DNA of 64,000 nt from a virus (taxonomy: Duplodnaviria > Caudoviricetes): positions 101,185-165,184 of IMG/VR virus record IMGVR_UViG_2840842423_000001; one strand, written 5' to 3'. Below are positions 20,294 through 36,191 of this stretch, one piece after another (position 1 is the first letter of the stretch; each line of letters opens with the position of its first letter). A program made the position numbers and the translations under genes. The notes under the pieces were generated by a model that saw only the letters and a list, made by a program, of their open reading frames with translations, was not told the DNA's origin and made no database searches.

Positions 20294-20322
20294 TTGACTA
20301 TAGATGATAAATATTATATAAT
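20294..20322 (+). promoter_or_regulatory. sigmaA promoter with phage box
   Basis: TTGACT-17-TATAAT. Confidence 0.85.
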
Positions 20323-20996
20323 GTATATGAGAGGAGAATGATAATGGAATTTTTATACGTTTATGGCGATGAGTGCGCAGCAATGGATTTTAAAGAACAT
20401 TTTGATGTGAGCTCAATTGTCAAACAATTAAGAGCAAGCACTGATAAGCGAATCACATTGGAAGATAGCAATGAAAACGAGTATACATTTAAGTTGTTGG
20501 AATTTGGAGATGTTGATCCCAAGTTTGTTAATTTTGTTAGAAATGAAATGATTGATTATGACCATGCAAAACAAAAAGACTTCTTTGAGATTGTGGAAGG
20601 TGGATAAATATGCAATGTCCTATCTGTGATAAGAAACTGCAACCGGAACATGAAGATTATATGATAACATCTTACTGGAAGAAAGCTATAAATGTGAGGA
20701 TAAATACCATAGTTATAGCTATTTGTATGTAACTGGAGCTACATTAGAAACCATAGATGATGTGAAATTCCATCACAGTTATACGTATGATGAGGAAAGA
20801 GATGTAAGGTTAATAAAGCAATATAACGCTGTAGTTAAAGTGACTAGAGAGATGTATTGGATGAATACTGATAGGATTGCTAGTGAGTTAGAACAGAGTT
20901 GGATTGGAAGTAAATTACATGAAGTATTGAACAAATTGGAAAAGTGGTTGGGTAAGTATAAAAATAAATAGTATTATATTTAATAAGAAAGGTGGT

Positions 20997-21500
20997 TTGG
21001 AGATGGAAGAAAAACCACAGACGAACAAGAAGGAAGCTAAGTGTGGAAGATGTAGTGAGAAGATACCAAAAGGTGAAGGGATAAAGCATAGTAGTAGATA
21101 TTATCATGAGGATTGTTATAAGGAGTGGAGAGGTCAGGCTGATGATCGTACACAGTTGATTGAATTTATAATGACACTTCTAGACTTAAAGAAACCCACA
21201 GGCATGATACTGATGCAGATTAAAAGGTTTCAAGATGAATTTGGGTATACATATAAGGGGATGGAATTATCACTTAGATACTTCCATGAGATATTAGGAA
21301 ATGAAGTACAGGAGAATGGTGGAATAGGGATTATTCCATATATTTATGAGGACGCGACAAGACAGTATGTTCAGCAAATGAAGATCAATGAAGCTGCACA
21401 GAATGAGGATAACTACAAGAATGAGGAGAGAGTGGTTTATATATCTCCTAAAGGACAACCAAAGAAAAACAACAAGTTAATCGACATAGATAGATTGTAG
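20997..21500 (+). CDS. YorH-like zinc-binding replication protein
   Basis: CxxC...HxxC N-terminus; GIGIIPY motif; directly upstream of the helicase. Confidence 0.65.
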   Translation: MEMEEKPQTNKKEAKCGRCSEKIPKGEGIKHSSRYYHEDCYKEWRGQADDRTQLIEFIMTLLDLKKPTGMILMQIKRFQDEFGYTYKGMELSLRYFHEILGNEVQENGGIGIIPYIYEDATRQYVQQMKINEAAQNEDNYKNEERVVYISPKGQPKKNNKLIDIDRL

Positions 21501-21511
21501 GGAGTGGGAGA

Positions 21512-23059
21512 ATGGCGATTCAAGAGAAGAGCAGCACGATTCAGGTACTTGGGAGCTTAATAAAACAACCTGATTTATTATCGGAAACGAATGAATATAA
21601 GATTGAAGTAAACGATTTTCCAGAGAAGTTTCATAGAATAATATTTGCAGCAATACATAATTTATACAACTCAGGAGATGTAGAGGTAATTGACTCAGTG
21701 GTGATTGATGGGTTCTTGAGTCAATATGATGTTCAGTATGAGATATTTAATCAGAATAAAGGATTGGAATACTTAGAAACAATACAGGAAATGGCTGAAG
21801 TTGAAAATTTTGATTATTATTATGGTAGATTGAAAAAATTTTCACTTATTCGAGAGATGGATGGATTAGGGTTTGACATTAGCGAAGTCTATGATGAAAC
21901 AATAATGAATCCTAGAGAAGCTGAAGAATTACAGAAGAAATTTGATAAGATGAGTATTGAGGATATTCTTGGAATATATGAAAATAAAATGGTTGAGATT
22001 AAGGACAAGTTTGAAAGTGATTCTGAGGCTCGTGGAATACAGGCAGGTGACGGTGTAGATGAATTACTTGATAGATTAAAAGGTTCTCCCAACGTTGGTT
22101 TGCCGCTGAACAGCCCAATGCTTACAGCAGCGGCATCTGGTGCAAGATTAAAAAAATTCTATATTAGGAGTGCTCCGACTGGTCATGGAAAGAGTCGTAA
22201 TTTAATCGGAGATGCTTGCAAAATGTCAGCCAAAGGTTGGTATGATTCCAAGTTAGGTGAATGGGTGCAAAATCAATTTGATGTAAACAGTGTTGTTATT
22301 TCTACTGAAATGTTGTTTGAAGAACTACAAACTCCTGCTATTGCTTACATTGCAGATGTAGAAGAAGATAAAATATTACTAGATACAATGACCGAAGAAG
22401 AAGAAGAAAGAGTAAGATATGCAGCTAATATTCTTAAATCATCAAATATTTTCTTTGAATTTTTACCAAACTTTGATGTTACAGATATTGAAAGAACCGT
22501 AGAGAAAAATATAATCAAAAATGGCGTGGAATATGTATTTTTCGACTATATTCACTCCAGCATTTCTATACTTTCGAGCTTTGCCAAGGATAGTGGAATT
22601 AATTTAAGAGAAGACCAAATATTGCTTCTTATGGCAGATAAATTGAAGCAAATCTGCAACAAATATTCAATTTTCCTAATGAGTGCTACACAATTGAATG
22701 GTGAGTGGAAAGAGGCTTGGCGAAAAGGGCAAGAGATTGACCAATCTTTCATCAGATCAAGTAAGGGTTTGATCGACAAAGTTGATCTCGCTGCAATAAT
22801 GTTACCTTTGAGCAATAAGGAAGAAAAAGAAATCGAAGAAATACTTTCACAAGGCTTTTATAAGAAAAAACCAAACTTTGTCACTCACATATTTAAGAAT
22901 CGTGGAAACAAACATACAAAATTAAAGATATTTTCATACATAAATATGGGCACGATGAGAATTGTGGATTTGTTTGCTTGCGATATAGAGAACACATTAA
23001 TTCCTATGGACTTGCTAGAGATTAAAAATAAAGAAGTACAAGAAGTTGATACAGAATGA
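21512..23059 (+). CDS. dnaB: replicative DnaB-like helicase (YorI-like)
   Basis: Walker A APTGHGKS, STEM, FFDYI, ATQLN, KNR motifs. Confidence 0.88.
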   Translation: MAIQEKSSTIQVLGSLIKQPDLLSETNEYKIEVNDFPEKFHRIIFAAIHNLYNSGDVEVIDSVVIDGFLSQYDVQYEIFNQNKGLEYLETIQEMAEVENFDYYYGRLKKFSLIREMDGLGFDISEVYDETIMNPREAEELQKKFDKMSIEDILGIYENKMVEIKDKFESDSEARGIQAGDGVDELLDRLKGSPNVGLPLNSPMLTAAASGARLKKFYIRSAPTGHGKSRNLIGDACKMSAKGWYDSKLGEWVQNQFDVNSVVISTEMLFEELQTPAIAYIADVEEDKILLDTMTEEEEERVRYAANILKSSNIFFEFLPNFDVTDIERTVEKNIIKNGVEYVFFDYIHSSISILSSFAKDSGINLREDQILLLMADKLKQICNKYSIFLMSATQLNGEWKEAWRKGQEIDQSFIRSSKGLIDKVDLAAIMLPLSNKEEKEIEEILSQGFYKKKPNFVTHIFKNRGNKHTKLKIFSYINMGTMRIVDLFACDIENTLIPMDLLEIKNKEVQEVDTE

Positions 23060-24303
23060 CGCATGACAGACATGCAGTTTTAAGATTATCTTTTGAAGTG
23101 ATAGAAGGATACTTTTCTGTGCTAGGGTTGACAATAGTTGACGATTTAAATAATTATAAAAATACTAAAACCAAATTTACTGCAATTGATAAAGATGGTT
23201 ACAAAGTTTTCATGACAGTGAATTCAGCAAAAAATTCAAAAGGTTATCGCAAATTTGATAAAAGCAATCCATATACTATAGACAATATTAAGCTTTGGTT
23301 GATACTAAATGATCCAGATTATGAGTTACTCTCTACAGAATATTGTGGAACTGATGAAAAATATACTTGGAGGATGATATCGAGACCTGATCTAGAACCA
23401 TTTCGAACGACTTGGACTGATTTTAAATCTGACGGGAATAGACATCCAGATTTGGGGCGGCAAAGGTCGGCAGACGGAAAAAGAAGAAAACCTGATCAGG
23501 TTAAAAGAGACATAGACAAAAGGCTTGAAGAATCGTATCCCGATTGGCTTCTAGATGAAGGCGAGGAGTTTAAATATCGTACAGCCAAGAGCCCATATTT
23601 AAATTTTACACATAAGTTGGGATATAAGTCACAAACAACATATGCTCAAGTACACTCAGAAGTCCTAAGAACGTTAGTTTTATTTCATCCAAGCTACCCG
23701 GAGACTTCAATACATAATATGGAGCTATGGACACACCTAAACTCTAAGTACGAAATGGTTAAGGGGCAAGAATATACAGAGTACAGAGGAAAATACAAGT
23801 TTATCTGTGACATTCACAATGAGTTCACCAACAACTTTAGCACAGTGTATTCATATAACACGGGTTGTCAAGACTGTATCTCTGAAGCTCATTATGGGGA
23901 AGGTAACCCAAATTGGAAGCCATTTATCACGGACGAAGAAAGAGAGAATAGACACACTAGAGAAATGTATGTTGATGGATATGCAAGATGGCGAACAGAC
24001 TCTTTGAAGCGAGATGCTTACTCTTGTCAAATTTGTGGGCACACAGAAGAACTAGTTGTACATCACAAAGATGGTTTTCATTGGAACGTAGATCGAAGAG
24101 CAGACCTATCCAATTCAGTGACCTTATGTTCTACTTGTCATGATGATTTTCACACCCAATACGGTTATTTTTATAATACAGAGGAACAGTTCAACGAATA
24201 TTTTACCGACATGCAAAAGATAATCGAAGACGTTATAAAAGATGCAAAAGAGTATCACCAAAGAAAAGATAATAAATACCATACAGAATTACATAAAGAA
24301 TAG
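23056..24303 (+). CDS. HNH homing endonuclease, free-standing
   Basis: C-terminal CQICG...VHHKDG...TLCSTCHDDFH; inserted between helicase and primase. Confidence 0.8.
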   Translation: MTHDRHAVLRLSFEVIEGYFSVLGLTIVDDLNNYKNTKTKFTAIDKDGYKVFMTVNSAKNSKGYRKFDKSNPYTIDNIKLWLILNDPDYELLSTEYCGTDEKYTWRMISRPDLEPFRTTWTDFKSDGNRHPDLGRQRSADGKRRKPDQVKRDIDKRLEESYPDWLLDEGEEFKYRTAKSPYLNFTHKLGYKSQTTYAQVHSEVLRTLVLFHPSYPETSIHNMELWTHLNSKYEMVKGQEYTEYRGKYKFICDIHNEFTNNFSTVYSYNTGCQDCISEAHYGEGNPNWKPFITDEERENRHTREMYVDGYARWRTDSLKRDAYSCQICGHTEELVVHHKDGFHWNVDRRADLSNSVTLCSTCHDDFHTQYGYFYNTEEQFNEYFTDMQKIIEDVIKDAKEYHQRKDNKYHTELHKE

Positions 24304-24319
24304 TGGTGATTAATCCTGT

Positions 24320-25453
24320 ATGAGTAGACTAGACAAAGACAAAATAAAAGAATCGCTCACATTATCCGACATAAACTTAATCCTATCTGACTTAGGTTCT
24401 TCTTCTCCTAGACAAGATAGCCAAGGCAATCCAATATACAGTACGGTGTGTCATCATGGAAATAGCAGTGATCATAAACATAAATTATATTATTATCCTT
24501 CTTCGTATAATTTTCATTGCTATTCCAATTGTGCAAGCATGGACATATATGAGGTAATTATTCAAGCTAAAGAACAACAAGGATACACCTTTAGCTTCTA
24601 CGAGTCTATCAAATACGTAACAGAATTAACTCATAAAAGTTTTACAATGAACGATAGCAGTAAAGGCAAACAATCAGATAAAATTTCAGACTGGAATTGG
24701 CTTAATCGCTTCAAACCTAAGAAAAAAATGACAACTCAACTACCATCATTCAACGAGAATGTACTGGATGTATTCTTACCTTATCTCAACAATTGGATCG
24801 GCGAAGGAATTACACCGAAAACTGCAAATCTATTCAATGTGCGCTACTACTTCAAGGAAGAACAAATAATTCTTCCACACTATGATATCAATAGTAGATT
24901 AATCGGCATTCGTTCCAGAAATACAGATGAACGTGCAGATTCAGGAGCAAAATATATTCCTACGATTGTGGAGAATACTCAATATAATCATGTATTATCT
25001 CATTCGCTTTATGGAATTCATCTTACACAAGAAGCCGTAAAATCTAGTCGTAAATGTATGTTGGTGGAAGGCGAGAAAAGTGTATTAAAAGGAACAGAAT
25101 TCTATGGAGAAGATAATTTCACAGTTGCAGTATGTGGCAGCAACATAAGCACAGTTCAACGAGATTTAGTACTTTCTTTAAATGTTGAAGAAGTATTTAT
25201 AGCATTTGACAAGTTTAGAGGGCAGAAAGATATGGAATCGGATGAAAAGTATGAAAAAGCATTGCTAGAGTATCAGAAGAAATTGGTGAGGTTAGCGCAT
25301 ATGTTTACTGCATTCGTGAGAGTGTACATTTTATATGATGATTATGGGGTGCTCAATCCCAAGGATTCACCACTGGATCAGTCAAAAGGCGCACTAGAAC
25401 TTCTTATGATGAATAAAAATGAAATTACTACTAAGGAAGGAATGGTAACTTGA
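24320..25453 (+). CDS. dnaG: DNA primase (YorJ-like)
   Basis: CHH...FHCYSNC zinc finger; TOPRIM LVEGEKS and AFD. Confidence 0.85.
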   Translation: MSRLDKDKIKESLTLSDINLILSDLGSSSPRQDSQGNPIYSTVCHHGNSSDHKHKLYYYPSSYNFHCYSNCASMDIYEVIIQAKEQQGYTFSFYESIKYVTELTHKSFTMNDSSKGKQSDKISDWNWLNRFKPKKKMTTQLPSFNENVLDVFLPYLNNWIGEGITPKTANLFNVRYYFKEEQIILPHYDINSRLIGIRSRNTDERADSGAKYIPTIVENTQYNHVLSHSLYGIHLTQEAVKSSRKCMLVEGEKSVLKGTEFYGEDNFTVAVCGSNISTVQRDLVLSLNVEEVFIAFDKFRGQKDMESDEKYEKALLEYQKKLVRLAHMFTAFVRVYILYDDYGVLNPKDSPLDQSKGALELLMMNKNEITTKEGMVT

Positions 25454-27185
25454 AGTATAATTTAAAAGGAAATAATAACATATTGTCTCCTTTAGAACAA
25501 ATATTACATAATCGAGGAGTCACAGATGTAGATGGATTCCTGAAAGCAGGAAGTGACCATAGCGTAACAAATCATTATTCTAAATTGGATAACATTGATA
25601 AAGCAGTAGATTGTCTACTAAAGCATATTGGAGGTGATAACAACATCTGGGTGCAAGTAGACCCGGATGTTTAGTTGACGGATATACATCTTCCGCAATG
25701 TTAATTAATTACTTACATAAAATCAAACCAAGCATCAACATACAATATAGACAACAAGACGGAAAGGAACATGGTATTAATGCTAATCATGTTCCTTCTG
25801 GTGTAGATTTAGTGTTGCTTCCTGACTCTGGGAGTGCAGATTTTGCAGAACACAAGAAACTACGCGAACGTGGCATTGATATCATTGTACTTGATCACCA
25901 TGAAGTAGAAAACAATCAAGAATCGAAACATGCAATTGTAGTAAACAATCAATTGTCACCTAAATTTGATAATAATAGCTTCAGTGGTGCAGGTGTCACA
26001 TTCAAGTTTCTGGAAGCATTAGATGACAGGTTAGAAGTAGACTATGCCAATACATATTTAGATTTATTAGCTTTAGGAATAATTGGCGACAGTATGCTAG
26101 TTTCAGAAAAAGAAAATAGATACTACATTACAAAAGGATTAAAAAGAATAAAAAACCCTTTAGTAAAAGAGATATTAAAATCGCAAGAATATTCAACTGG
26201 TGGAGTGGTAGATATAACCAGCATCTCATTTTTTATTAACCCACTGTTTAACGCAGTTGTCAGATCAGGAAGCAAAGAGGAAAAGAATCAGGTATTTGAA
26301 GCATTGCTAGGAGATGGTACTGAGGAAGTATACTATGAACGCGGGAAGAAATATGAACCTTTAACAACAAATACAGTGCGTATGATGAAGCGTGTACGTG
26401 TAAGACAAAACAAACTAAGAGACAAAGGTGTAGAAGCAATCGAAGAGAAAATTGCAGAAAAGAATCTGTTGAACAATAAAATATTGACTGTAGAGGTTAC
26501 AAATGTTTTAGATCCCAATTTAAGTGGGTTGGTAGCCAATAGGCTTGCGCAGAGTTATAAGCGTCCAACATTGCTTGTTAGGTGGGATGATGACAATGCA
26601 ACATTAAGTGGCAGCGCAAGAGGATATGAGAATGGTTATATTAAAGACCTTAAAGGATATTTAGATTCTATGAATCAGTTTATTTATCTTCGTGGACATC
26701 CTAATGCGCATGGCGTAAAAATCATTCCAAACAATCTCATAGAAGTAAACAATATGATAAACAAAGATTTGAAAAATATCGAGTTAGATACAGGCTCATA
26801 CGATGTTGATTTTGAGATTGACATGAAACATCTTACAAAAGGTTTTATAACCACTCTAAATGACTACAGTGATCTTTGGGGCAAAGGTGTTGAATCTCCG
26901 TTGCTTATGATTCACTCAATCAATGTAAATAAAACTGCCGTTTTATTGCAGGGTAAATCGAAAAATGTACTCAAATTTGCAGTAAATGGAATAGAATTTA
27001 TCAAGTTTGGGAGCAGTGAGGAAGAGTATAAGAGTATTGTTGATGTTGAAGAAAAGAAATCACGCCAAGTTTCTATTAATGTTATAGGAAAAGCATCTAT
27101 GAATACCTTCAGGGGACAAAAGACCCCACAAATTATGATTGAAGACTTTGAAGTAGAAGAAGCTGAAGATAAGTTGTTATTTTAG
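25450..27185 (+). CDS. recJ: RecJ-like ssDNA exonuclease (YorK-like), split by a 5-nt gap at 25672-25676
   Basis: Part 1 ends VQVDPDV*; part 2 frame reads VDGYTSSAML; DHH, SGAGV, SGSAR and GH.NA.G motifs intact. Confidence 0.88.
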
Positions 27186-27186
27186 A

Positions 27187-27215
27187 TTGACAATAGATAA
27201 TAAATATTATACAAT
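27187..27215 (+). promoter_or_regulatory. sigmaA promoter with phage box
   Basis: TTGACA-17-TACAAT; overlaps the track's TTG start, so the true start is likely 27232. Confidence 0.8.
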
Positions 27216-27231
27216 AAAAGGAGATAGACAA

Positions 27232-28512
27232 ATGAGCTATAGTGGATACGTTGTTAAGGTTAAAGAATTAAGAAAACATTCTAACGCCGATAGATTGCAA
27301 GTTCTTACAGTATTCGGAAACGATGTTATTGTGGGATTGAATGTAGAAGTGGGTGACGTTGGAATTTACTTTCCGACGGATGGAAAGTTGAATTATGATT
27401 TTGCTAAGAAGAATAATCTATTACGAGAACAAGATGCAGAGGGCAATCAAGTTGGTGGTTATCTTGATCCAGATAAACGACATGTATCTAGTATTCGCTT
27501 ACGTGGTGAAAAGTCTGATGGATTATATATGCCGATTAGCAGTTTAAATAATTTCTGCGATGTATCAAAACTGAATGAAGGTGATAAGATTGACACAATT
27601 AACGGAAAACAGGTCTGTGAAAAATATGTGCCCAGAGGAGAGGTTAAGAACAGCAATCCTACTGGTAAGCAAACTAAGAAGAAAGAAAAGGAATCTTACC
27701 CGTTCTTTGAGCAACATGTAGATACTCAACAACTGGCATATAACACTAATTCATTCAAAGAGGGAGATTTATGCTACATTACTCTGAAACTTCATGGGAC
27801 ATCACAAAGAACAAGCCACGCCATCAAGAAAGAAGTCAACCCACTACATAAATTCTTGAGGCTATTTGGTGTTAAGAAACACAAGAAAGATTGGGAGTAT
27901 GTAACAGGCACACGTAGAGTAATGCTTAAAGATTATAACGGTGGATATTATGGCGGAAATGCTTTCAGAAAGCAATGGCATGATTTCTTTGTTGATAAAC
28001 TTCCCAAAGGAGTCTCCGTATATTATGAAGTCGTAGGATACACAGGCACTGGTCAATTGATTATGCCAGAAGTAAACAATAAGAAAACGAAAGATAAAGA
28101 GTTCATTAAGAAATATGGTAAGACTACAAAATATACATATGGGCTAGAAGAAGGGCAAAGCGATATTTATGTTTATAGAATGACTATGACCAATGAGGAT
28201 GGCGAGGTTGTTGAAATCCCTTGGGAAACAGTGAAGCTATACTGTGAGAAAATGGGTGTAAAATATACTCCTGAGTTAGATAAATTCTTCTTTACTACTG
28301 TAGAAGATATGATGGAACGAGTTGGAGAATATGAAGATGGTATTGATCCAATTGGTAAGACTCATATCCGTGAAGGAGTAGTTGTTAGAGTAGAGAATCA
28401 TGAGAGGTTTACGGCATATAAACAAAAGAACTTCAGTTTCAAGGTTTTGGAGGGCATTGTTAAACAAGATGATGTGTTAGACATGGAAGAGGAAAATTCA
28501 TTAGAGGTTTAA
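27232..28512 (+). CDS. ATP-dependent RNA ligase (DRB0094/Rnl5-like, N-terminal OB domain)
   Basis: H.NADRLQ and RLRGEKS.G N-terminal motifs, motif I KLHGTS, YYEVVG, REGVVVR, K.KN..F. Confidence 0.8.
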   Translation: MSYSGYVVKVKELRKHSNADRLQVLTVFGNDVIVGLNVEVGDVGIYFPTDGKLNYDFAKKNNLLREQDAEGNQVGGYLDPDKRHVSSIRLRGEKSDGLYMPISSLNNFCDVSKLNEGDKIDTINGKQVCEKYVPRGEVKNSNPTGKQTKKKEKESYPFFEQHVDTQQLAYNTNSFKEGDLCYITLKLHGTSQRTSHAIKKEVNPLHKFLRLFGVKKHKKDWEYVTGTRRVMLKDYNGGYYGGNAFRKQWHDFFVDKLPKGVSVYYEVVGYTGTGQLIMPEVNNKKTKDKEFIKKYGKTTKYTYGLEEGQSDIYVYRMTMTNEDGEVVEIPWETVKLYCEKMGVKYTPELDKFFFTTVEDMMERVGEYEDGIDPIGKTHIREGVVVRVENHERFTAYKQKNFSFKVLEGIVKQDDVLDMEEENSLEV

Positions 28513-28536
28513 TATGTAAATAATATTACAAAGGAG

Positions 28537-29367
28537 ATGAAATCAATGAGTAAATTAATCAACAATCTCAGCGAACAAAAAGAAATCTTAGAATCGCAAG
28601 GCTACTCAGTAGCATATATTTGTATTTATGGCAGCCAAAATTACAACCTTGATATCCACACAGATGATTATCAATCTGATATTGATATGAAAGCAATCAT
28701 CGTTCCAACATTAGACGATCTAATCCAAGATAGTAAACCAGTTTCTACAGTAGTTGACACAGAATGGGGTCAATGTGACATCAAAGATATAAGACTATAT
28801 TTTAAAACTTTATTGAAAGCTAATCCCGCATATATTGAAACATTATACACTGATTACTATGTAGTTGATAGTAAGTTTGACAACGAATTTGAACAGATTT
28901 TTAATCTTAGGGATAATTTAGTTGAAACACTGAAAGCTCAAATGATACGTGCTATGTATGGCATGATGAAAGAGAAAGAGAAAGCCATGTGTCATCCATA
29001 TCCTACAATTGCACACAAGATTGAGAAGTATAAATTTGATGGCAAGCAGACACACCACATTTTGAGATTGTGGCTAATGATGGAAGATTACTATAATCAT
29101 GGAAAAAACATGAAAGAATGTATGTATCCAGATGCAAAATTAACAGAGTTGCTCATCGATCATAAGTTAAATAAATTGCCTTTTGAAACAGCTTTAGAAG
29201 ATGTTAACGATGTAATGAAACTGGCAAAGGAATTTAAAGATGAAGTTTTAAATAATATTGATGAGAATAAGGTTGATTATTCAGTAAAGGGTGATTTTCT
29301 AAAATTGTCTCAGGAGATTATTAAAAGTAGAATAATCGAAGAATCGAAAGGAGTACAATATGACTAA
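28537..29367 (+). CDS. Pol-beta superfamily nucleotidyltransferase (RlaP/YcgL-like)
   Basis: YGSQNY.L......SD.D motif, K.NP..IE.L, H..RL. Confidence 0.75.
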   Translation: MKSMSKLINNLSEQKEILESQGYSVAYICIYGSQNYNLDIHTDDYQSDIDMKAIIVPTLDDLIQDSKPVSTVVDTEWGQCDIKDIRLYFKTLLKANPAYIETLYTDYYVVDSKFDNEFEQIFNLRDNLVETLKAQMIRAMYGMMKEKEKAMCHPYPTIAHKIEKYKFDGKQTHHILRLWLMMEDYYNHGKNMKECMYPDAKLTELLIDHKLNKLPFETALEDVNDVMKLAKEFKDEVLNNIDENKVDYSVKGDFLKLSQEIIKSRIIEESKGVQYD

Positions 29368-30334
29368 ATTAATAGTAATGGTGGGCTTACCAGCTTCTTT
29401 TAAGTCTACCTATGCCAAACAATTAGCTAAAGAACACAATGCGACAATACTATCCTCTGATGATATTCGAGAAGAGTTGCTAAATGATGTCAATAATCAA
29501 GATAATAACTCTAAGGTGTTTGAAGTAATGAATAAACGTGCTAAACAGTTACTCCAAAAAGGCAATAATGTCATACTAGACGCAACGAATATTAATCGCA
29601 AACGCCGCAAACATCTAATCAATCATGAGTTGAAAATGGCAGATGAGAAGATCGTATATTACATGAATACCCATGTAGACGATTGTGTAGAGAGCGACTT
29701 AAATAGAGATAGATCTGTAGGTAAAGAAGTGATTATGAAGATGTATAAATCGATGCAGATCCCTGTGAAAAACGAAGGTTGGGATGAGGTTGTCATAATT
29801 AATCCTGAGATGAATGAAGCTCACGAGGAAAGAAAAACCTTAGAGAATATTATAACTCAGAACAAAAATTATGAGACAGTAATGAGTACGCTTTCTCATT
29901 ATATGAACGACTTCAAGAAAATTCATGAACTTCCACACGATTCTAAATATCATTCATTTTCGGTTAGTAGGCATACTTATCATGTGTTTGATTATATAAG
30001 AGATCGTACAGATGATTTAAGACTGCTGTGGGCTGCACTGTTTCATGATGTTGGAAAGGGATATACTAAGTCGTTTATCAATTATAAAGGTGAGAAGACT
30101 AGATATGCGAGCTTTTTGGGGCATGAAAATATTTCTGCACAGATTGCTTTATACGCTTTATTGGAATTAGGATATGATACTGAATTTGCTACAAGGGTGT
30201 CTGCTTTGTGTCAGTTTCATATGTATCTTATGAGTGCAGGAGATAAGAAGATGAATGAGATTCAAGAAATGTTGGGCAATGATTTATATGAGGATTTGAT
30301 GATATTGCATTGGGCTGATATGCAAGCGAAGTAA
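29360..30334 (+). CDS. polynucleotide kinase (AAA_33) fused to HD phosphohydrolase
   Basis: GLPASFKST P-loop, SSDDIR, DATN; H..H ... LFHDVGK ... GHE ... HM ... AD. Confidence 0.85.
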   Translation: MTKLIVMVGLPASFKSTYAKQLAKEHNATILSSDDIREELLNDVNNQDNNSKVFEVMNKRAKQLLQKGNNVILDATNINRKRRKHLINHELKMADEKIVYYMNTHVDDCVESDLNRDRSVGKEVIMKMYKSMQIPVKNEGWDEVVIINPEMNEAHEERKTLENIITQNKNYETVMSTLSHYMNDFKKIHELPHDSKYHSFSVSRHTYHVFDYIRDRTDDLRLLWAALFHDVGKGYTKSFINYKGEKTRYASFLGHENISAQIALYALLELGYDTEFATRVSALCQFHMYLMSAGDKKMNEIQEMLGNDLYEDLMILHWADMQAK

Positions 30335-30814
30335 AGGTTGACAATGGTCTATGGATAATAAATAATATAATACATATAATAGGAGTGTGATGTCATAATG
30401 AGCAATAAAGAATATCCAACAGCAAAAGAGTTGTTAGACAGTGGAAAATGGAAGCTACATAAGACGATTAAAGATAAGCTTGCAGGTTTGTATGTATATG
30501 TAGAAGAAATCAATGAAGGTGAGAGTAAGAAATATAGAATACATAAGATGAATTTCTTCACAAAACGTGGTGTGCTAGTATATGGAAGTTTGAGTGTTAT
30601 TTTAGGGTCAGTTAAATGGTTGTTGAATCTCATACAGAAAGAAATGGGTGATGCAGCGTTGGGTGAAATATTGGATGAGATTAAAGAGATGAGATTGGCG
30701 AGGAAGCATAGGTTGGATACAGGGAAGTCGTTTGGAACTGGGCAGGGATTTAGGAGTATGGATGATGTGGATAGGGAAGTTGAGAGGATTTTAAGGAAGG
30801 TTAGTAAATAACAG

Positions 30815-30843
30815 TTGACTATAGATAAATAATGTTATATAAT
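30815..30843 (+). promoter_or_regulatory. sigmaA promoter with variant box, upstream of dnaE
   Basis: TTGACT-17-TATAAT. Confidence 0.85.
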
Positions 30844-30870
30844 CTATACATAAAGAAAGGAGATGTTCAA

Positions 30871-32787
30871 TTGTTGCAAAACAAACCAAAATTCATAAAC
30901 CTCCATTGCCACTCGGATGTGTCAAATATTCGGCTTTTGGATTCTACAAATTCAATTCAAGCTTTACTAGAGACGGCAGTAAAGATGAATTATCAGGGGC
31001 TGGCACTAACGGATCATGAGGCATTGTCAAATCATCTTAAAGCTATTAAAACAGCGAGAAAAATGAAAGAGAACGGTACTATGTCAGAATCGTTCCGTAT
31101 TATTCTTGGAAATGAATTGTACCTTATAGATTCGTTAGAAGAAGTGAGAGATAACTATCAATCTGGAGTAACTAAATTTCCACACTTCTTAATTCTTAGT
31201 AGATCGGAAGTCGGTCATGAGCAAATGCGTATACTCAGTAGTCGTGCATGGTCACGAAGTTTCAGAACTGGGCTTATGGAAAGAACGGTAACACTCAAGT
31301 CAGATATTGAAGAAATTGTAAAGCCAAATCAAGGTCATATTATTGCAAGCTCTGCCTGTCTCGGGAGCGAAATCAATATAAGATTACTTGCTATTAAAGA
31401 AGCTAATGAGAATAGTGATGAACAAGCTGCACAATTACATAGAAATAAATTAAATGAATTTATACTATGGTGTATTGATGTATTCGGTCAAGATTACTTC
31501 TTTATTGAATTGCAACCAGCTTTAAGTGAAGAACAAATATATTGTAATAAAGAATTAATCAAAATTGCAGATTTCTATAAGTTGAAACGAATTATAACAA
31601 CAGATGCACATTATCCCCGTCCAGAAGATCGTGCTATTCATGAAGCATTTTTAAACGCTAAGGAAGCAGAGAGGGAAGTTGCTAGTTTTTACGAAGCGTG
31701 TTTTTTAGCCAATGTGGATGAAATTTATGAAAGAATGAGTTATATAGATACAGAGATTCTTGACGACGCCATCTCCAATACACAATTAATTGGAGATATG
31801 GTAGAAGATTATACATTAGAGAAAGATACAGTAATACCTAAAATTGATTTACCAAAGTTTGAAGTTAGACATATATTTAAACCAGCTTATAGCAAATATG
31901 AATATATTGAAAAAATGGCAAATTCTGATGAAGAACAGAACAGATATTTAGTAAAGCTAATCGAAGATGGGTTCGAGGAAAAACTAAAGACTCCTGAACT
32001 AACACAAGAAAAGTTTCACCAAATTTTAGCAAGAATTGATATAGAACTAAGTGAACTATGGGAAATAGGACAGGAAATCAATCAAGCTATGGGCAGTTAT
32101 TATATTACGGTTTCTGAAATAATCAGAATAATATGGGATGATGAATGTGGAGGTGACAGTCTCGTTGCTCCGGGTAGAGGATCAAGTTCAGGATTTATTT
32201 TAAATTATTTACTTGATATTACTCAAATTAACCCATTAGAATATGGAATTGAAATGCCACACTGGAGACATTTACATAAAAGTCGTCCCGATATTGGAGC
32301 ATTGGACATTGACATTGATACAGAAGCAAATAAACGTCCTAGAATTATTCAAGCTCTAAAAGACCATTTTGGAGAAGATAGAATCTTACAAGTAGCTACA
32401 TTTGGAACAGAAACATCTAAAGCAGCTATAACAACAGCGTGTAGAGGATTAGGATATGATTCAGATATTGCCTTACACTTAGGTAGCATGATTCCTTTTG
32501 AGCGTGGTAAAAATTGGAGTATAAGCGATTGTTTGTATGGCAATGAAGAGAAAGATAGAAAACCAGTTAAAGAGTTTATTAATGAGATTGAACGCTATCC
32601 TAAGTTAAAAGAAACTGCATTGGGATTGAATGGTCTAATTTCCAAGAGGGGAGTACACGCGGGAGGAGTCGTATTATTTCCTGATATATACTACAAAACT
32701 AGCTCATTAATGCGAGCACCCAATGGAACTCCTATTACAGCCTATTCGTTAGATGATGTTCAGGCTATGTCGAATATTAAATTTGAT
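30871..32787 (+). CDS. dnaE: DNA polymerase III alpha (YorL-like), exon 1
   Basis: PHP motifs HCHS, TDH, TTDAHY; GRGS; DIDID; HAGGV; ends ...KFD before the intron. Confidence 0.92.
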
Positions 32788-34139
32788 TAACATTATATTG
32801 CTCGCAACTCACACAATAATGAGAGGGGCGAGAAAATGGCAAAAATTCACAGAGAAAAATATTACAATCAAATCTTAGAGTTATTTAGAAAAGGAAATAA
32901 CATGTCCACTATAGCAGAAATACTTAATATTAATCGATTAGATGTAAGAAAGGTTTTGGAGGAGAATAAATTATATCAGCCAAGCTATTTAAAATTACGA
33001 AATGACTATGATAAGATGGTTATTAAAGTTAAAAAATATTATGTTGACGATAACCTTTCTGCGGTTGAAGTTGCTGAAAAAGCAGGTATTTCTGACAGGT
33101 CTGTTATTAGATTATTAAAAGGCATGAATATTCCAATCAGACCTCAATCTTATTACGTGACAACAAATTCAGTTAACGAGAAAGCTTTTTCAGAATACAC
33201 TCCCGAAAGCGTGTATTGGCAGGGTTTATTGCTGGTGATGGCTGTGTGTTCAATCGTCGAACAGATAGAGATGCAGATTATGCACATGTGTTAACCATTG
33301 GACTCTCGTATAAAGATAAGTCACACTTAGAAAAGTTTAAGGAATTTGTTGATTTTTCAGGAGATTTATACATAGATAAAGATCGCACTAAAATTACAAT
33401 AACAATAAATAGCAGGCGGTTGGTAAAAGACATAATGGAAAAATATGATATAACTAAAAATAAAACAGATACTTATACACCTCCTGACAAAATCCCATCT
33501 CATCTAAAAAAATATTTTGTGTTAGGTCTTTTTGATTCAGACGGTTCAATGACAAAAATAAATAGACCCAACAAAGCTGTAAACGGACATGTTAAAGGAT
33601 TATATGTTTTTGGAATGAGTTTTACAGGCACTATGGAAACAATTATCTATATTAGAAATTTTTTTGGTAGTACTGTAAAAGAAACTAAAAGACGTGAAAA
33701 TGATTCAAACAATTATACAATCTTGTTTCAGGGTAATATTCAATTAATCAAATATGGCTCTAAGTTGTATGATAAATACTCTAAAAAGTTTTGTATGAAA
33801 AGAAAATATAAAAAATACTGTGAGTTGCTTGAGCAATATAATATAGTCGTCCATGATGGTAACATTATGGATTATGAGCTGGTGAACCTGTAAATGCAGG
33901 GTGTGTCTTAGATAAGATGCTAACAGGGGAAGCCTAAGTCATAATTAAAAAATATGATATGGTAATCCTGTGCCAAGCCTTTGTGTACAAAGGAAGGTGC
34001 AACGACTATTCCGAGAGGAAGTAGGTTATGGGTGAAATTCCTATAGCCGAAGTGCCAGCCAGCCCCAAGGGTTGAAGATATAGTCTACTCCGACTGAATC
34101 AATCAGTGTTAAAGTATCTCGAAAGAGACGGTAGAGAGG
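32788..34139 (+). ncRNA. group I self-splicing intron in dnaE (1352 nt)
   Basis: 5' exon ends in T, intron ends in G, splicing gives KFD|LLTIEALDK in frame; P7 gactat(34004)/atagtc(34080); P3 gctggt/gccagc; long-range P1. Confidence 0.92.
32836..33893 (+). pseudogene. intron-encoded LAGLIDADG homing endonuclease with 1-nt frameshift near 33219
   Basis: VYW|AGFIAGDG restored by one extra G; second motif LGLFDSDGS; N-terminal HTHs. Confidence 0.8.
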
Positions 34140-36191
34140 TTACTTACAATTGAAGCATTAGATAAAATACGTGTTACATTAGACTTGCTTGTTGAAAACG
34201 GAGAAATAGAAAAACAAGAAACATTGAAAGATACATTTAACAAATATTTACACCCAGACGCAATAGACAAAGAAAGTAAAGAGGTTTATAAAATTTTGGG
34301 AAATGATACTACAGCAGATATTTTTCAGTTCAGTACAGATTTGGCACGAGACGCGATTACCAAGGTTAAACCTAGTAACTTAATTGAGACAGCATCTGTA
34401 AATTCACTTATGAGGCTAATGTCAGATACTGGGGAGCAACCAATTGATACCTTTGTTCGATTCAAAAACGATATAAGCTTATGGTATCAAGAGATGAAAG
34501 ATTACGGCTTGAATGAATCAGAGATTGAGGTAATGGAAGAACATTTACTGATTTTAAATGGAATTTCCGAAAGTCAGGAAAATATTATGACTATTACAAT
34601 GGATAAACGAGTTGCAGGCTTCTCAGTCAAAGATGCGAACCGCCTTAGAAAAATTATCGCAAAGAGTAATCGAGATGCAGTTGCGGATATGAAGCAGTAT
34701 TTTATGGACAGTGGATTAAAATTAGGGAACAGGCAAGAAATTTTAAATTATGTGTGGAACGTGCAGGTGTTCCGACAATTATTATACAGTTTTTCCACAT
34801 TACACGTAATTCCATATACGTTAGTAGCTTTGCAGGAAATCAACCTTAATTTACATTACAATCCTATTTATTGGCAGACGGCTTGCTTAACTGTTAACAG
34901 CGGTGGCATGGATGATGAAGAAGAGGCTATTAAAAAACAATCCTCAAATTATGGGAAAGTCGCAGCGAGTATAGGAGAAATGCAGGAACGTAACGTAAAA
35001 GTGTCCTTGCCCAACATCAATAAAGCAGGTTTTGGCTTTACGCCAGATATTGAAAATAATGCAATCATATTCGGATTAAAGGGTCTCGTGGGCGTAGGGG
35101 ATGACGCAGTACACACAATAATCCAAAATCGTCCATACACATCATTCTCAGATTTCCTAACTAGACTACACACCACCAAACTACTTAAGAATGGTCACGT
35201 TGTACAACTAATCAAAGCAGGATGTTTCGACGAATTTGATTCACGTATCAACATAATGAAACAATATGTAAATCACACATTTGCACCTAGAAAGAACTTA
35301 ACATTAGCATCCTTTAACACAATATTACAGCTAGGCAACGATATACTACCAGACGAGTTATCTATCAATGTACGCTATTATCGTTACAGACAGCACATAT
35401 ACAAGCACTCAATAGGCAAGTCACCTGATCGTAAAACTAAGAATCGGCTATTCTTATTAGACAACATCTCAACTGAGTTTCTATATGAGCATTTCTCAGA
35501 GTCCTGTATAGTAGACTACGATGAGAATACAAGTTTACCAATAGTAGCTGAGTGGCTCTTTGAAAAAGAATATGATAAGAAGATGGAAGTTGTAAAAGAA
35601 TGGTTGACTCAAGAATCAACTTTACAATTGGTTAATGATAAATTGTATCAAGAGGAATGGGATAATACAACTAAGAATGAGAGCATGGAAGCTGGAGAAA
35701 TGTCAAGCCTATCTTATTATTACACAGGGCATGAGTTAGAACACCTAGACACAGAGAAATATGATATATCCAACTTCTCTGAGCTTTCAGAAGAACCGAT
35801 ACCGGTACGTGATTTCCAATATAAAGGACAGACAAGACATGAATATCAAATTTCTAGGCTGGCAGGGACTATCTTAGACAAAGACAAAAACAGACATACA
35901 GTAACCATCCTAACAACTGATGGGGTAGTTGTTGTCAAAATGTACGCAGGTGCGTACAGTCACTACTCAAGACAGATATCGGAACGTGGAGCAAATGGTA
36001 AGAAAACTGTTATTGACAAGAGTTGGTTCAATCGTGGCAACAAAGCACTTTTTGTGGGATTCAGACGTGGCAATCAATTCGTCTTACGTAAGTATCGTAA
36101 TACGATTTATCAACACACTATTGCTTTGATTGATGATATAGATGAGAATGGTGACTTATCACTTACAACTGAGCGTGTTAATATGGATTAA
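34140..36191 (+). CDS. dnaE: DNA polymerase III alpha, exon 2
   Basis: IFQF, YSFS..H...Y, LPNINK, FGL..L.GVG, LIKAGCFD, C-terminal OB fold. Confidence 0.92.
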   Translation, partial: LLTIEALDKIRVTLDLLVENGEIEKQETLKDTFNKYLHPDAIDKESKEVYKILGNDTTADIFQFSTDLARDAITKVKPSNLIETASVNSLMRLMSDTGEQPIDTFVRFKNDISLWYQEMKDYGLNESEIEVMEEHLLILNGISESQENIMTITMDKRVAGFSVKDANRLRKIIAKSNRDAVADMKQYFMDSGLKLGNRQEILNYVWNVQVFRQLLYSFSTLHVIPYTLVALQEINLNLHYNPIYWQTACLTVNSGGMDDEEEAIKKQSSNYGKVAASIGEMQERNVKVSLPNINKAGFGFTPDIENNAIIFGLKGLVGVGDDAVHTIIQNRPYTSFSDFLTRLHTTKLLKNGHVVQLIKAGCFDEFDSRINIMKQYVNHTFAPRKNLTLASFNTILQLGNDILPDELSINVRYYRYRQHIYKHSIGKSPDRKTKNRLFLLDNISTEFLYEHFSESCIVDYDENTSLPIVAEWLFEKEYDKKMEVVKEWLTQESTLQLVNDKLYQEEWDNTTKNESMEAGEMSSLSYYYTGHELEHLDTEKYDISNFSELSEEPIPVRDFQYKGQTRHEYQISRLAGTILDKDKNRHTVTILTTDGVVVVKMYAGAYSHYSRQISERGANGKKTVIDKSWFNRGNKALFVGFRRGNQFVLRKYRNTIYQHTIALIDDIDENGDLSLTTERVNMD

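What the first reader, a model, noticed from the sequence alone, without database searches (positions are those of the whole stretch)
25638..25700. recJ split inside its catalytic motif by GTT-TA-GTT at the foot of a hairpin: candidate programmed ribosomal bypass
Seen: the sequence reads GAC CCG GAT GTT(25669-71) TAG, and a second GTT (25674-76) reuses the G of the stop and continues GAC GGA TAT ACA TCT TCC GCA ATG in the frame of the 495-aa ORF. Skipping exactly 5 nt restores the DHH-family motif I, D-P-D-V-D-G. Take-off and landing codons are identical and the A-site codon is UAG. The take-off codon forms the 3' base of an 11-bp stem, aacatctgggt(25642-52)-gcaagtag-acccggatgtt(25661-71), with one G-U pair, which suggests selection at the RNA level. 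The stem extends across a 2-nt bulge so that aac pairs with the landing gtt. Both halves are otherwise intact, and 25698 has no RBS. Known: matched codons, a stop and a stem-loop drive T4 gene 60 bypassing, and tRNA-Val stop-hopping is known from reporter constructs. Inference: a minimal recoding signal tuning RecJ levels. Alternatives are a 5-nt excision and religation by the RNA-ligase cluster directly downstream, a scar of a lost intron or element, or a recent mutation.
Basis: partly seen in the sequence, partly recalled or inferred. Interest (0 to 1): 0.85.

Follow-up and report, generated by a model that had tools for sequence, protein, structure and literature searches.

The report
Candidate five-base ribosome hop in phage recJ
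A prophage exonuclease gene is broken by five extra bases inside its catalytic motif, and the surrounding signals, together with similar breaks at the same spot in related phages, suggest that ribosomes are meant to skip the break rather than that the gene is dead.

Summary
In an SPbeta-like prophage of Virgibacillus profundi, the yorK/recJ-like gene reads GAT GTT TAG and resumes at GTT GAC GGA. That is 5 nt more than intact homologues, and Val73 of SPbeta YorK is encoded twice.

Three results argue against a random lesion.

- **Breaks at motif I recur in relatives.** 16 of 41 small ORFs homologous to the N-terminal part end inside DHH motif I. All 6 truncated C-terminal fragments examined imply a shifty codon followed by TGA (CCC_TGA in five), a classical +1 frameshift site. 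This is inferred from protein sequences only.
- **The hairpin is exceptional.** The hairpin ending on the take-off codon folds at -16.8 kcal/mol, against -3.4 ± 2.1 in 64 intact relatives. It is one of three such places on the window's + strand.
- **A full Shine-Dalgarno sequence sits beside it.** The only GGAGGTGAT in the 64 kb lies 3 nt upstream of the hairpin. Split relatives are enriched for the potential to encode both signals.

Best reading (about 0.55): a recoding cassette of Shine-Dalgarno sequence, hairpin, shift codon and stop. The window's version needs a +5 hop of peptidyl-tRNA-Val.

The main rival (about 0.27) is a plain inactivating insertion.

No product has been shown, no reads were available, and I could not obtain DNA from any relative whose N-terminal fragment also ends in Val-stop.

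The parts
25450..25674 (+). N-terminal part of the yorK/recJ-like gene (74 codons). The TTG start overlaps the stop of the upstream primase-like ORF and the part ends ..VQVDPDV-TAG.
   Evidence: ORF list. Aligns to SPbeta YorK residues 1-73, 48% identity. Keeps the invariant residues of the N-terminal alignment.
25630..25638 (+). Internal Shine-Dalgarno-like sequence GGAGGTGAT inside the coding sequence (codons for I-G-G-D), 3 nt before the hairpin.
   Evidence: The only match in the 64 kb on either strand. That this 9-mer is the complement of the 16S rRNA 3' end is recalled, not from a call. Split relatives are enriched for the potential to encode such a sequence at the same distance.
25642..25671 (+). 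RNA hairpin: 5' arm 25642-52, loop 25653-60, 3' arm 25661-71. The 3' arm ends on the last base of the take-off codon.
   Evidence: MFE -18.4 kcal/mol, z -3.70. -16.8 kcal/mol for the 40 nt ending at 25671, against a mean of -3.4, sd 2.1, min -8.4 in 64 distinct intact relatives. One of 3 places on the + strand reaching -16.8.
25669..25671 (+). Proposed take-off codon GTT (Val, equivalent to YorK V73).
25672..25676 (+). The 5 surplus bases TAGTT: stop TAG 25672-74 overlapping the proposed landing codon GTT 25674-76.
25677..27185 (+). C-terminal part of the gene. The resume codon is GAC 25677, giving DGYTSSAMLINYL...; gene callers start it at ATG 25698.
   Evidence: BLASTP to YorK residues 73-574, 44% identity. 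Pfam DHH (profile positions 21-125 of 125 only) and RecJ_OB. Holds all invariant columns of alignment A1, including D66 H67 H68.

Best explanation
The break is a recoding cassette and not a dead end. A ribosome translating the yorK/recJ-like mRNA reaches GUU (25669-71) in its P site with UAG in the A site.

Three signals lie just upstream:
- a full Shine-Dalgarno sequence at 25630-38;
- a 30-nt hairpin whose 3' arm is, at that moment, still inside the ribosome;
- the slow-to-decode stop codon itself.

In a fraction of ribosomes, peptidyl-tRNA-Val leaves GUU, the mRNA slides 5 nt, and the tRNA re-pairs with the identical GUU at 25674-76. Decoding resumes at GAC GGA. The product is full-length enzyme with the canonical DHH motif I, D-P-D-V-D-G. 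The remaining ribosomes terminate and make a 74-aa fragment.

The likely purpose is to keep a potent ssDNA exonuclease at a low, set level. No active enzyme can arise from either piece alone.

Shown: the sequence anatomy; that the hairpin and the Shine-Dalgarno sequence are exceptional; and that relatives are split at the same motif.

Inferred: that the relatives use CCC_UGA +1 frameshifting (from protein sequences in two overlapping frames); that the hairpin and Shine-Dalgarno sequence push the ribosome forward; and that a hop occurs at all.
For: 1. Fit to homologues. The N part ends and the C part begins on the same YorK residue, V73. Only a +5 re-pairing gives DPDVDG. A +2 shift would give DPDVVDG and a -1 shift DPDVLVDG (read).

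2. The motif I break recurs in the family.
- A profile of the N-terminal 75 aa found 41 small proteins. 16 of them, including the window's own, end inside motif I before the final Asp-Gly. Their endings are ..DSDP..VDP..DPDV..DTDT and ..DSD.
- 6 of the 6 truncated C-fragments examined, read 1 nt upstream of their own frame, give D-x-D-P-stop; one gives D-x-D-[F/I/L]-stop. That implies CCC_TGA or NTT_TGA.
- The prefix of P0004 overlays P0127 over 14 codons, leaving three DNA solutions that differ only in the stop codon. I infer TGA from the Asp codon that follows in P0004's frame; the script did not check this. Both proteins lie on contigs of 12,234 and 17,438 nt.
- P0017 (split) has an intact sister of at least 90% identity, P0178.
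- CCC_UGA is a +1 site used in Listeria phage tail genes (PMC5009743, passages).

3. The split state persists. N-fragments only 32-73% identical to the window's keep the family's conserved residues. The DPDV-stop cluster of a Lachnospira MAG was seen on 27 contigs.

4. The hairpin is exceptional. It is better on the sense strand. Its register is the same as in the two junctions reconstructed from relatives, at -13.3 and -9.2 kcal/mol, with the 3' arm ending on the last base of CCC.
- The potential for a stem of at least 10 bp there was found in 7 of 15 split forms against 5 of 200 intact controls.
- P0134 carries N-I-R-V, the antisense reading of D-P-D-V. Its intact sister P0031 does not.

5. 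The Shine-Dalgarno sequence.
- It is the only GGAGGTGAT in the window.
- 1 of 68 intact loci has any Shine-Dalgarno core in the 60 nt upstream.
- The potential for at least 8 nt of complementarity 28-38 nt upstream was found in 10 of 15 split forms. The controls gave 2 of 242 intact forms, and 1 of 100 among near relatives.

6. Precedent.
- A stable upstream hairpin stimulates +1 frameshifting on 70S ribosomes (PMC6321510, abstract and section 2.1).
- The phiHau3 terminase has 10-nt inserts proposed to be bypassed, with a 5' stem loop and an internal Shine-Dalgarno sequence (PMC10732093, passages).

7. The prophage looks maintained. Its polymerase gene is split by a group I intron carrying a LAGLIDADG ORF, not by decay.
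Against: - No protein, RNA or read data. No sequencing run could be listed, so an assembly error or a strain-specific mutation is not excluded.
- I could not obtain DNA from any split relative. All claims about relatives' junctions, hairpins and Shine-Dalgarno sequences rest on back-translation of proteins, which gives 'potential' and not real sequence.
- The three other DPDV-stop lineages may use a different junction, for example an extra T giving GTT_TGA. That would leave the window as the odd one out.
- The split sequences are related to each other, so the Fisher tests overstate independence. I count perhaps 5-6 lineages.
- None of the 83 related phage and viral loci with real DNA is split at motif I. 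75 are intact under code 11. 6 of the 7 examined are open if TAG is read as Gln; L070, printed like L068, was not re-examined; and L062 is unclear.
- Stop-hops in reporter constructs are described as low-level, and no natural one is known (PMC5009743, passages).
- The Shine-Dalgarno sequence lies 30 nt from the take-off codon. In prfB the spacing is 3 nt (recalled). That it acts through the hairpin is my conjecture.
- P0125 carries a 2-nt insertion at the same codon boundary with no stop beside it. That looks like plain damage at this site.
Confidence: 0.55

Rival explanations
1. Plain inactivating 5-nt insertion. The prophage's RecJ-like gene is a recent pseudogene. It may be a decayed descendant of a formerly intact or +1-recoded gene, and the hairpin and Shine-Dalgarno sequence are relics or coincidence.
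For: - The element is a prophage in a draft genome, and phage recombination nucleases can be dispensable (general knowledge).
- None of the 83 loci with real DNA shows a motif I frame break.
- P0125 shows a non-decodable 2-nt insertion at the same codon boundary.
- Hops are inefficient in reporters (PMC5009743).
Against: - The inserted bases are exactly those needed for a stop plus a matched landing codon: 1 in 1024 for a random 5-mer (my calculation).
- Both parts are otherwise intact and keep all invariant residues.
- The hairpin ends on the last base of the take-off codon and is an extreme outlier.
- The only full Shine-Dalgarno 9-mer of the window lies beside it.
- N-fragments with the same DPDV-stop ending persist across roughly 30-57% divergence and on 27 contigs in one lineage.
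Confidence: 0.27
2. Recoding occurs, but by another route than a +5 hop. Candidates are a +2 shift (Val-tRNA reads the second GTT while peptidyl-tRNA stays put) or a -1 shift. Either would add one or two extra residues to motif I.
For: The frames allow it. Out-of-frame A-site binding without re-pairing is known for some +1 sites (PMC10732093, introduction passage).
Against: The products DPDVVDG and DPDVLVDG break the D-x-D-x-D-G spacing kept in 75 of 83 loci. No slippery X_XXY_YYZ heptamer is present (by eye).
Confidence: 0.05
3. Two-piece enzyme. The 74-aa fragment and a separately initiated C-fragment assemble without a covalent link.
For: Split phage genes are known, for example topoisomerase subunits split by homing-endonuclease cassettes (10.1101/2022.08.31.505936, abstract and outline).
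Against: The first start codon in the C frame is ATG 25698, with no Shine-Dalgarno sequence. A protein starting there lacks VDGYTSSA, so the final Asp-Gly of motif I would be in neither piece.
Confidence: 0.05
4. Assembly or sequencing artefact next to a strong hairpin.
For: The record is a draft SPAdes-style contig (its title). No reads could be inspected.
Against: The contig title gives coverage 113. A 5-nt insertion of mixed bases is not a usual short-read error (general knowledge). Splits at the same motif occur in many independent assemblies.
Confidence: 0.04
5. Removal of the 5 nt at the RNA level: cleavage, then religation by the RNA ligase / RlaP / kinase-phosphatase cluster immediately downstream.
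For: The cluster is real: RNA_ligase plus PHA02142 OB, RlaP, and AAA_33 plus HD.
Against: No endonuclease with such specificity is evident. Split relatives mostly need +1, not a 5-nt removal. SPbeta itself has yorK next to the polymerase with no such cluster. No mRNA splicing of this kind is known in bacteria (recalled).
Confidence: 0.03

Closest known systems
Synthetic stop-hops (Weiss et al. 1987, as described in the review PMC5009743; passages only)
   Same: Matched codons flank a stop codon. Peptidyl-tRNA re-pairs downstream, and a slow A-site codon triggers the event.
   Different: Those are reporter constructs with low yield, and the review says no natural case is known. Here the landing codon overlaps the stop by one base (5 nt, not 6), the frame changes, and there are an upstream hairpin and a Shine-Dalgarno sequence.
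Streptomyces phage phiHau3 terminase, with 10-nt inserts proposed to be bypassed (PMC10732093; passages)
   Same: A phage gene carries a short frame-disrupting insert that is absent from homologues, with a slow codon at the 5' end of the insert. Candidate signals are a 5' stem loop plus an internal Shine-Dalgarno sequence. The product is needed in small or regulated amounts.
   Different: The gap there is 10 nt and starts with the rare UUA codon, not a stop. The gene, host and proposed regulatory logic (tRNA availability) all differ.
Phage T4 gene 60 bypass (PMC5462505 and PMC6551183, abstracts in the search listing only; 10.1101/2022.08.31.505936, abstract and section 19; 10.1101/2024.12.09.627546, abstract)
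   Same: Matched take-off and landing codons; a stop directly after take-off; pairing of the mRNA leaving the ribosome proposed as the forward driver.
   Different: The gene 60 gap is 50 nt, with a take-off stem-loop inside it, a nascent-peptide signal and a MobA homing cassette. None of these fits a 5-nt gap.
+1 frameshifting at shifty stops: CCC_UGA in Listeria phage tsh, CUU_UGA in prfB with an upstream Shine-Dalgarno sequence (PMC5009743 passages; PMC6321510 section 2.1)
   Same: A stop in the A site with an upstream duplex as stimulator. The window's split relatives appear to use exactly this at the same motif.
   Different: The window needs +5 (or +2 or -1). GUU cannot re-pair at +1, the stop is UAG and not UGA, and the Shine-Dalgarno sequence is 30 nt away.
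SPbeta YorK / RecJ-like DHH exonucleases
   Same: 44% identity over the C part and 48% over the N part, in the same neighbourhood of helicase and primase-like genes.
   Different: YorK is one uninterrupted 576-codon ORF.

Membership tests
DHH / RecJ-like ssDNA exonuclease (YorK type) | DHH domain and RecJ OB domain | tested here: met
   Pfam DHH 7.5e-11 and RecJ_OB 1.6e-12 on the 495-aa part. 44% identity to YorK.
DHH / RecJ-like ssDNA exonuclease (YorK type) | Motif I, D-x-D-x-D-G, in one reading frame | tested here: not met
   The motif is split as DPDV-stop / (V)DG. It is restored only if 5 nt are skipped. The Pfam DHH match starts at profile position 21.
Translational bypassing or hopping in general | Identical take-off and landing codons that do not overlap | tested here: met
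   GTT 25669-71 and GTT 25674-76.
Translational bypassing or hopping in general | Slow-to-decode codon (a stop or a rare codon) in the A site at take-off | tested here: met
   TAG 25672-74.
Translational bypassing or hopping in general | A single polypeptide spanning the gap is made | not testable with these tools
   No proteomic or reporter data. No sequencing run was listed.
T4 gene 60 / MobA bypass cassette | Take-off stem-loop inside a gap of about 50 nt, a nascent-peptide signal, and an adjacent mobA | tested here: not met
   The gap is 5 nt. The hairpin lies upstream and not in the gap. The nearest homing-type ORF, an HNH at 23056-24303, lies two genes upstream and was not compared with mobA.
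phiHau3-type short bypass | A short frame-disrupting insert whose flanks are adjacent in homologues | tested here: met
   75 of 83 related loci have an uninterrupted D.D.DG.
phiHau3-type short bypass | A 5' stem loop plus an internal Shine-Dalgarno sequence near the site | tested here: met
   GGAGGTGAT at 25630-38 and the hairpin at 25642-71. Their function was not tested.
+1 programmed frameshift at a shifty stop (CCC_UGA or CUU_UGA) | The P-site codon can re-pair in the +1 frame, and the downstream ORF is in the +1 frame | tested here: not met
   The window's downstream frame is +2/-1 relative to the upstream frame, and GUU slipping to UUU is not cognate. The feature is met by inference in 6 of 6 truncated relatives.
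Intrinsic terminator or attenuator | A GC-rich stem directly followed by a U tract | tested here: not met
   Not reported by the terminator scan of 20000-32000. The tail after the stem is TAGTTGAC.

The most novel reading that the evidence does not exclude
Phage RecJ-like exonuclease genes have repeatedly acquired a compact, modular recoding cassette inside the codons of their catalytic motif I. The cassette has four parts: an internal Shine-Dalgarno anchor, a hairpin whose 3' arm is still inside the ribosome when the shift codon is in the P site, a shift-prone or matched codon, and a stop.

Most members would then use CCC_UGA +1 frameshifting. The window would carry the first natural stop-hop, a 5-nt translational bypass (GUU UAG UU). 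That ties nuclease output to release-factor activity and to mRNA refolding at the ribosome's exit.
Probability: 0.45. Interest if true: 0.85.

Novelty: new variant of a known kind. Interest (0 to 1): 0.77.

Why it matters
- **A natural stop-hop.** Natural translational hopping is known from very few genes, and the review I read says no natural stop-hop is known. A 5-nt hop with an identifiable Shine-Dalgarno-plus-hairpin driver would be the smallest natural bypass. It could be tested with a 90-nt cassette.
- **An overlooked recoding family.** The recurrent, apparently CCC_UGA-based split of the same catalytic motif in many SPbeta-like and gut phages would be a new family of recoded genes that annotation pipelines now file as two ORFs or as pseudogenes. 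The window's own halves, and relatives such as WP_289236600.1, stand in the databases as separate or truncated proteins.
- **A design principle.** Placing the recoding site inside the active-site motif means neither fragment can be active. That would be a neat way to dose a dangerous nuclease.

My literature searches found no report of recoding in recJ/yorK. They cover only open-access full text.

Tried and rejected
**Searches for DNA of split relatives (none succeeded)**
- megablast of the locus against phages: no match.
- tblastn of P0004, P0073, P0141 and P0144 against phages: only distant matches under annotated yorK genes.
- The search for related loci with P0017 and P0073 in viral contigs: nothing.
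- The search for related loci with P0017 in metagenome contigs: nothing.
- The search for related loci with P0165 in viral contigs: three intact relatives at 35-45% identity.
- Degenerate DNA patterns for IPDGYTSS, for GAT-CCC-TGA-TGG and for the window-like GTN-TAG-TN arrangement gave only chance matches outside recJ, or nothing.

**Reads and RNA**
- No sequencing run was listed, and no RNA holder was listed.

**Other searches that added little**
- The search of protein representatives with P0005: three N-truncated representatives at or just after motif I among the best 150. One (P0263) is, by my reading of its sequence, explained by TAG-as-Gln recoding. The other two carry no junction information.
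- Intragenic terminator: not flagged.
- Known RNA family at the site: none. The only Rfam match in the window is the group I intron.
- Suppressor tRNA: no tRNA genes in the window.

**Ideas I considered and dropped**
- Quasi-palindrome templated insertion: a copy templated from the 5' arm would give GTTGTT, not GTT-TA-GTT (reasoned).
- Transcriptional slippage: there is no long homopolymer.
- A split ribosome-binding site bridged by the hairpin: the TTG after the hairpin (25675) opens only a 9-codon ORF in the wrong frame.
- Hairpin 'potential' with the stem forced to end exactly on the shift codon did not separate all classes, so I also report the version allowing 3 nt of slack.
- The 8 loci with short upstream frames are not frameshifts. 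6 of the 7 examined have in-frame TAG where relatives have Gln. L070 was not re-examined. L062 remains unexplained.

**Supplements**
- Supplementary figures of PMC10732093 and PMC6321510 show the phiHau3 structures and the hairpin constructs. They may bear on spacing comparisons.
Full report
**What is there**

The window is part of NZ_NPOA01000004.1, a 286-kb contig of the Virgibacillus profundi P3-H5 draft genome (100% match). The region is an SPbeta-like prophage. The genes run, all on the + strand, in this order:
- DnaB-like helicase;
- a free-standing HNH ORF;
- a primase-like ORF;
- the broken yorK/recJ-like gene;
- an RNA ligase / RlaP / kinase-HD cluster;
- a PolIII-alpha-like polymerase.

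The best phage matches to the 495-aa ORF are SPbeta-group YorK proteins at about 44% identity. No near-identical phage record exists.

**The observation**

The sequence reads GAC CCG GAT GTT TAG TTG ACG GAT.
- The 74-codon ORF 25450..25674 aligns to YorK residues 1-73 and ends on V73.
- The translation starting at the second GTT (25674) aligns from V73 to residue 574.
- The Val codon is therefore present twice with TA between the copies, and the gene carries exactly 5 surplus bases inside DHH motif I. YorK has VQVDSDVDGYTSS.
- Skipping TAGTT gives VQVDPDVDGYTSS.
- The Pfam DHH match on the large ORF lacks the first 20 profile positions.
- There is no start codon in the downstream frame before ATG 25698, and no Shine-Dalgarno sequence in front of it.

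**The break recurs at this motif in relatives**

*C-terminal fragments.* Among the 120 best of 370 homologues of the large ORF, seven are N-terminally truncated to 493-515 aa. Six of them begin a few residues before the Asp-Gly of motif I. Four begin ..IPDG.., one begins ..LFRLIPDVDG.., and one begins ..IFDG...

*N-terminal fragments.* A profile of the N-terminal 75 residues, searched among proteins of 39-137 aa, returned 41 hits.
- 16, including the window's own, end inside motif I before the final Asp-Gly. Their endings are ..VDSDP, ..VDP, ..VDPDV, ..DTDT and ..VDSD.
- Two more end at ..VD.
- One ends right after DG.
- One (P0125) runs on in another frame from the same codon boundary, consistent with a 2-nt insertion.
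- The other 21 contain the whole motif and stop further on. Many are contig ends or TAG-recoded phages.

*The junction inferred from two frames.* Reading the six C-fragments one base upstream of their own frame gives D-x-D-P followed by a stop in five, and D-x-D-[F/I/L] followed by a stop in one. 'I-P-D-G' is ATC CCT GAT GG, which in the other frame is GAT CCC TGA TGG.
- The prefix of P0004 and the tail of P0127 fit one DNA sequence over 14 codons, apart from the stop codon. The following Asp codon in P0004's frame implies TGA, although the script did not check this. Both proteins lie on contigs of 12,234 and 17,438 nt.
- P0008 fits P0131 in the same way.

These relatives therefore carry one extra base that creates CCC_TGA (once NTT_TGA). 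According to the Atkins et al. review, this is the +1 site used in Listeria phage tail genes, and it shifts at 2-15% at the end of pheL (PMC5009743, passages). This is an inference from protein sequences. I never saw the DNA.

*Origin and persistence.*
- P0017 (split) sits in the same 90% cluster as the intact P0178, so the state arises from intact genes.
- P0129 and P0164 differ by one residue over the aligned stretch before the junction, yet carry different junction types, DPDV-stop and VDP-stop.
- Endings like the window's (DPDV-stop) occur in three other lineages: P0129 (69% identical, same last 11 residues), P0134 (69%; 68%), and the P0144/P0165 cluster of a Lachnospira MAG, seen on 27 contigs.

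**Most relatives are intact**

Of 83 related loci with real DNA (SPbeta plus 82 IMG/VR contigs), 75 have an uninterrupted D.D.DG with a proper N-terminus. Of the other 8, I re-examined 7.
- 6 have in-frame TAG at positions where relatives have Gln, so they are open under a TAG-as-Gln code.
- L062 shows no N-terminal domain.
- L070 prints like L068 and was not re-examined.

None of the 83 has a frame break at motif I. The split forms come from Logan, ENA, JGI and NCBI proteins whose DNA I could not reach.

**Signals around the site in the window**

*The hairpin, 25642-25671.*
- It is the MFE and centroid structure: -18.4 kcal/mol, z -3.70, 0 of 200 shuffles.
- It is weaker on the antisense strand because of the G-U pair (-12.6 kcal/mol).
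- The 40 nt ending on the take-off codon fold at -16.8 kcal/mol. The equivalent 40 nt of 64 distinct intact relatives average -3.4 (sd 2.1, best -8.4).
- Only three places on the + strand of the 64 kb reach -16.8.
- The 3' arm ends on the last base of the take-off codon. In the two junctions reconstructed from relatives, the predicted hairpins (-13.3 and -9.2 kcal/mol) likewise end on the last base of CCC.

*Hairpin potential across the family.* I computed the longest Watson-Crick stem that the peptide could encode over all synonymous codons, ending within 3 nt of the shift codon. It is at least 10 bp in 7 of 15 distinct split N-fragments and in 5 of 200 intact controls. All four DPDV-stop sequences score 11-13. 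In P0134 the family's usual I-F-V is replaced by N-I-R-V, the antisense reading of D-P-D-V. Its intact sister P0031 lacks this.

*The Shine-Dalgarno sequence.*
- GGAGGTGAT, which by recall is a full complement of the 16S rRNA 3' end, occurs once in the window. It sits at 25630-38, 3 nt before the hairpin.
- Only 1 of 68 intact loci has any Shine-Dalgarno core in the 60 nt upstream.
- The potential to encode at least 8 nt of such a sequence 28-38 nt upstream is found in 10 of 15 split N-fragments. The controls gave 2 of 242 intact sequences, and 1 of 100 among the near relatives. That one is P0031.

*Caveats.* These 'potential' statistics use protein sequences, and the split sequences are not independent. 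I count perhaps 5-6 lineages.

**Mechanism proposed**

With GUU in the P site and UAG in the A site, termination by RF1 competes with forward slippage. At that moment the hairpin's 3' arm (8 nt plus the P-site codon) lies in the E site and exit channel. The loop, the 5' arm and the Shine-Dalgarno sequence are already outside. I conjecture that Shine-Dalgarno/anti-Shine-Dalgarno pairing holds the hairpin's foot at the exit, and that zipping of the stem pulls the mRNA out. That moves the ribosome forward until peptidyl-tRNA-Val finds the next GUU, 5 nt on.

Precedent from the literature:
- A stable upstream hairpin reached about 60% of the +1 stimulation given by an internal Shine-Dalgarno sequence on 70S ribosomes, and only without RF2 (PMC6321510, section 2.1).
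- Pairing of mRNA leaving the ribosome is discussed as the forward driver in gene 60 (10.1101/2024.12.09.627546, abstract). However, the 5' stem-loop is not conserved among gene 60 homologues (10.1101/2022.08.31.505936, section 19).
- phiHau3 terminase has 10-nt inserts with a 5' stem loop and an internal Shine-Dalgarno sequence. A junction peptide was found by mass spectrometry in E. coli for a UAA variant (PMC10732093, passages).

**Rivals**

- *A plain lesion* remains quite possible. There is no product, no reads are available, no split form was found among loci with DNA, and P0125 shows undecodable damage at the same boundary. Against it stand the exact TAGTT, the intact halves, and the coincidence of two rare signals at the site.
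- *A two-piece enzyme* would lack the final Asp-Gly.
- *RNA-level excision* by the neighbouring RNA-repair genes has no support.
- *A terminator* is not predicted.

**Novelty**

Hopping, shifty stops and upstream stimulators are all known. New here would be a natural 5-nt stop-hop, and a recoding family seated in the catalytic motif of phage RecJ-like genes.

My searches found nothing on recoding in recJ/yorK. The GeneTack survey paper does not mention RecJ, exonuclease or DHH in its main text.

**Verdict**

The best explanation has probability about 0.55, and interest is 0.77.

Noticed in passing
window 32791-34184: The PolIII-alpha-like polymerase gene is in two ORFs (30832..32790 and 34185..36191). 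They are separated by a group I intron (Rfam RF00028 at 33817-34106, 64 bits) that carries a LAGLIDADG endonuclease ORF (33216..33893).
   Followed up: partly
window 23056-24303: A free-standing 415-aa ORF with an HNH motif lies between the DnaB-like helicase and the primase-like gene. SPbeta has no gene at that position.
   Followed up: no
window 25760-25800: A second strong hairpin lies about 90 nt after the break, inside the codons for GKEHGINANHVPS: -17.9 kcal/mol, z -3.87. The same stretch in 43 relatives averages -8.2 (sd 3.0, best -14.2).
   Followed up: partly
window 27187-30334: An RNA-repair-type cluster sits directly after recJ: RNA ligase with a PHA02142 OB domain, an RlaP-like nucleotidyltransferase, and an AAA_33 kinase fused to an HD domain. 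In SPbeta the polymerase gene follows yorK at this position.
   Followed up: no
L044, L052, L068, L072, L075, L079 (IMG/VR loci), about 300 nt before locus position 2501: The recJ-like genes of these viral contigs carry in-frame TAG codons where relatives have Gln (for example MEY*LI, LI*IDSD). These look like phages that read TAG as Gln.
   Followed up: partly
proteins P0139, P0149, P0150, P0154: Another recurrent end point occurs in a different lineage. Small ORFs stop just after DHH motif II, as ..PDAGRLSA..PDAGRLCL and ..PDAGR. The similar tails suggest a shared inserted sequence or a second recoding site.
   Followed up: no
proteins P0129 and P0164: These two N-fragments differ by one residue over the aligned stretch before the junction, yet end differently (..GGGNNIWVQVDPDV and ..GGDDNNQIFIMVDP). 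The junction region seems to be exchanged or to evolve fast.
   Followed up: partly
L062 (IMG/VR), locus 2200-2560: The recJ-like gene here has SDQDG in place of D.D.DG, and no recognisable N-terminal domain in any frame within 300 nt upstream.
   Followed up: no
window, 12 sites: GGAGGTG occurs 12 times against 3.0 expected from shuffles, 10 of them on the + strand. I did not sort them into ribosome-binding sites and intragenic sites.
   Followed up: no
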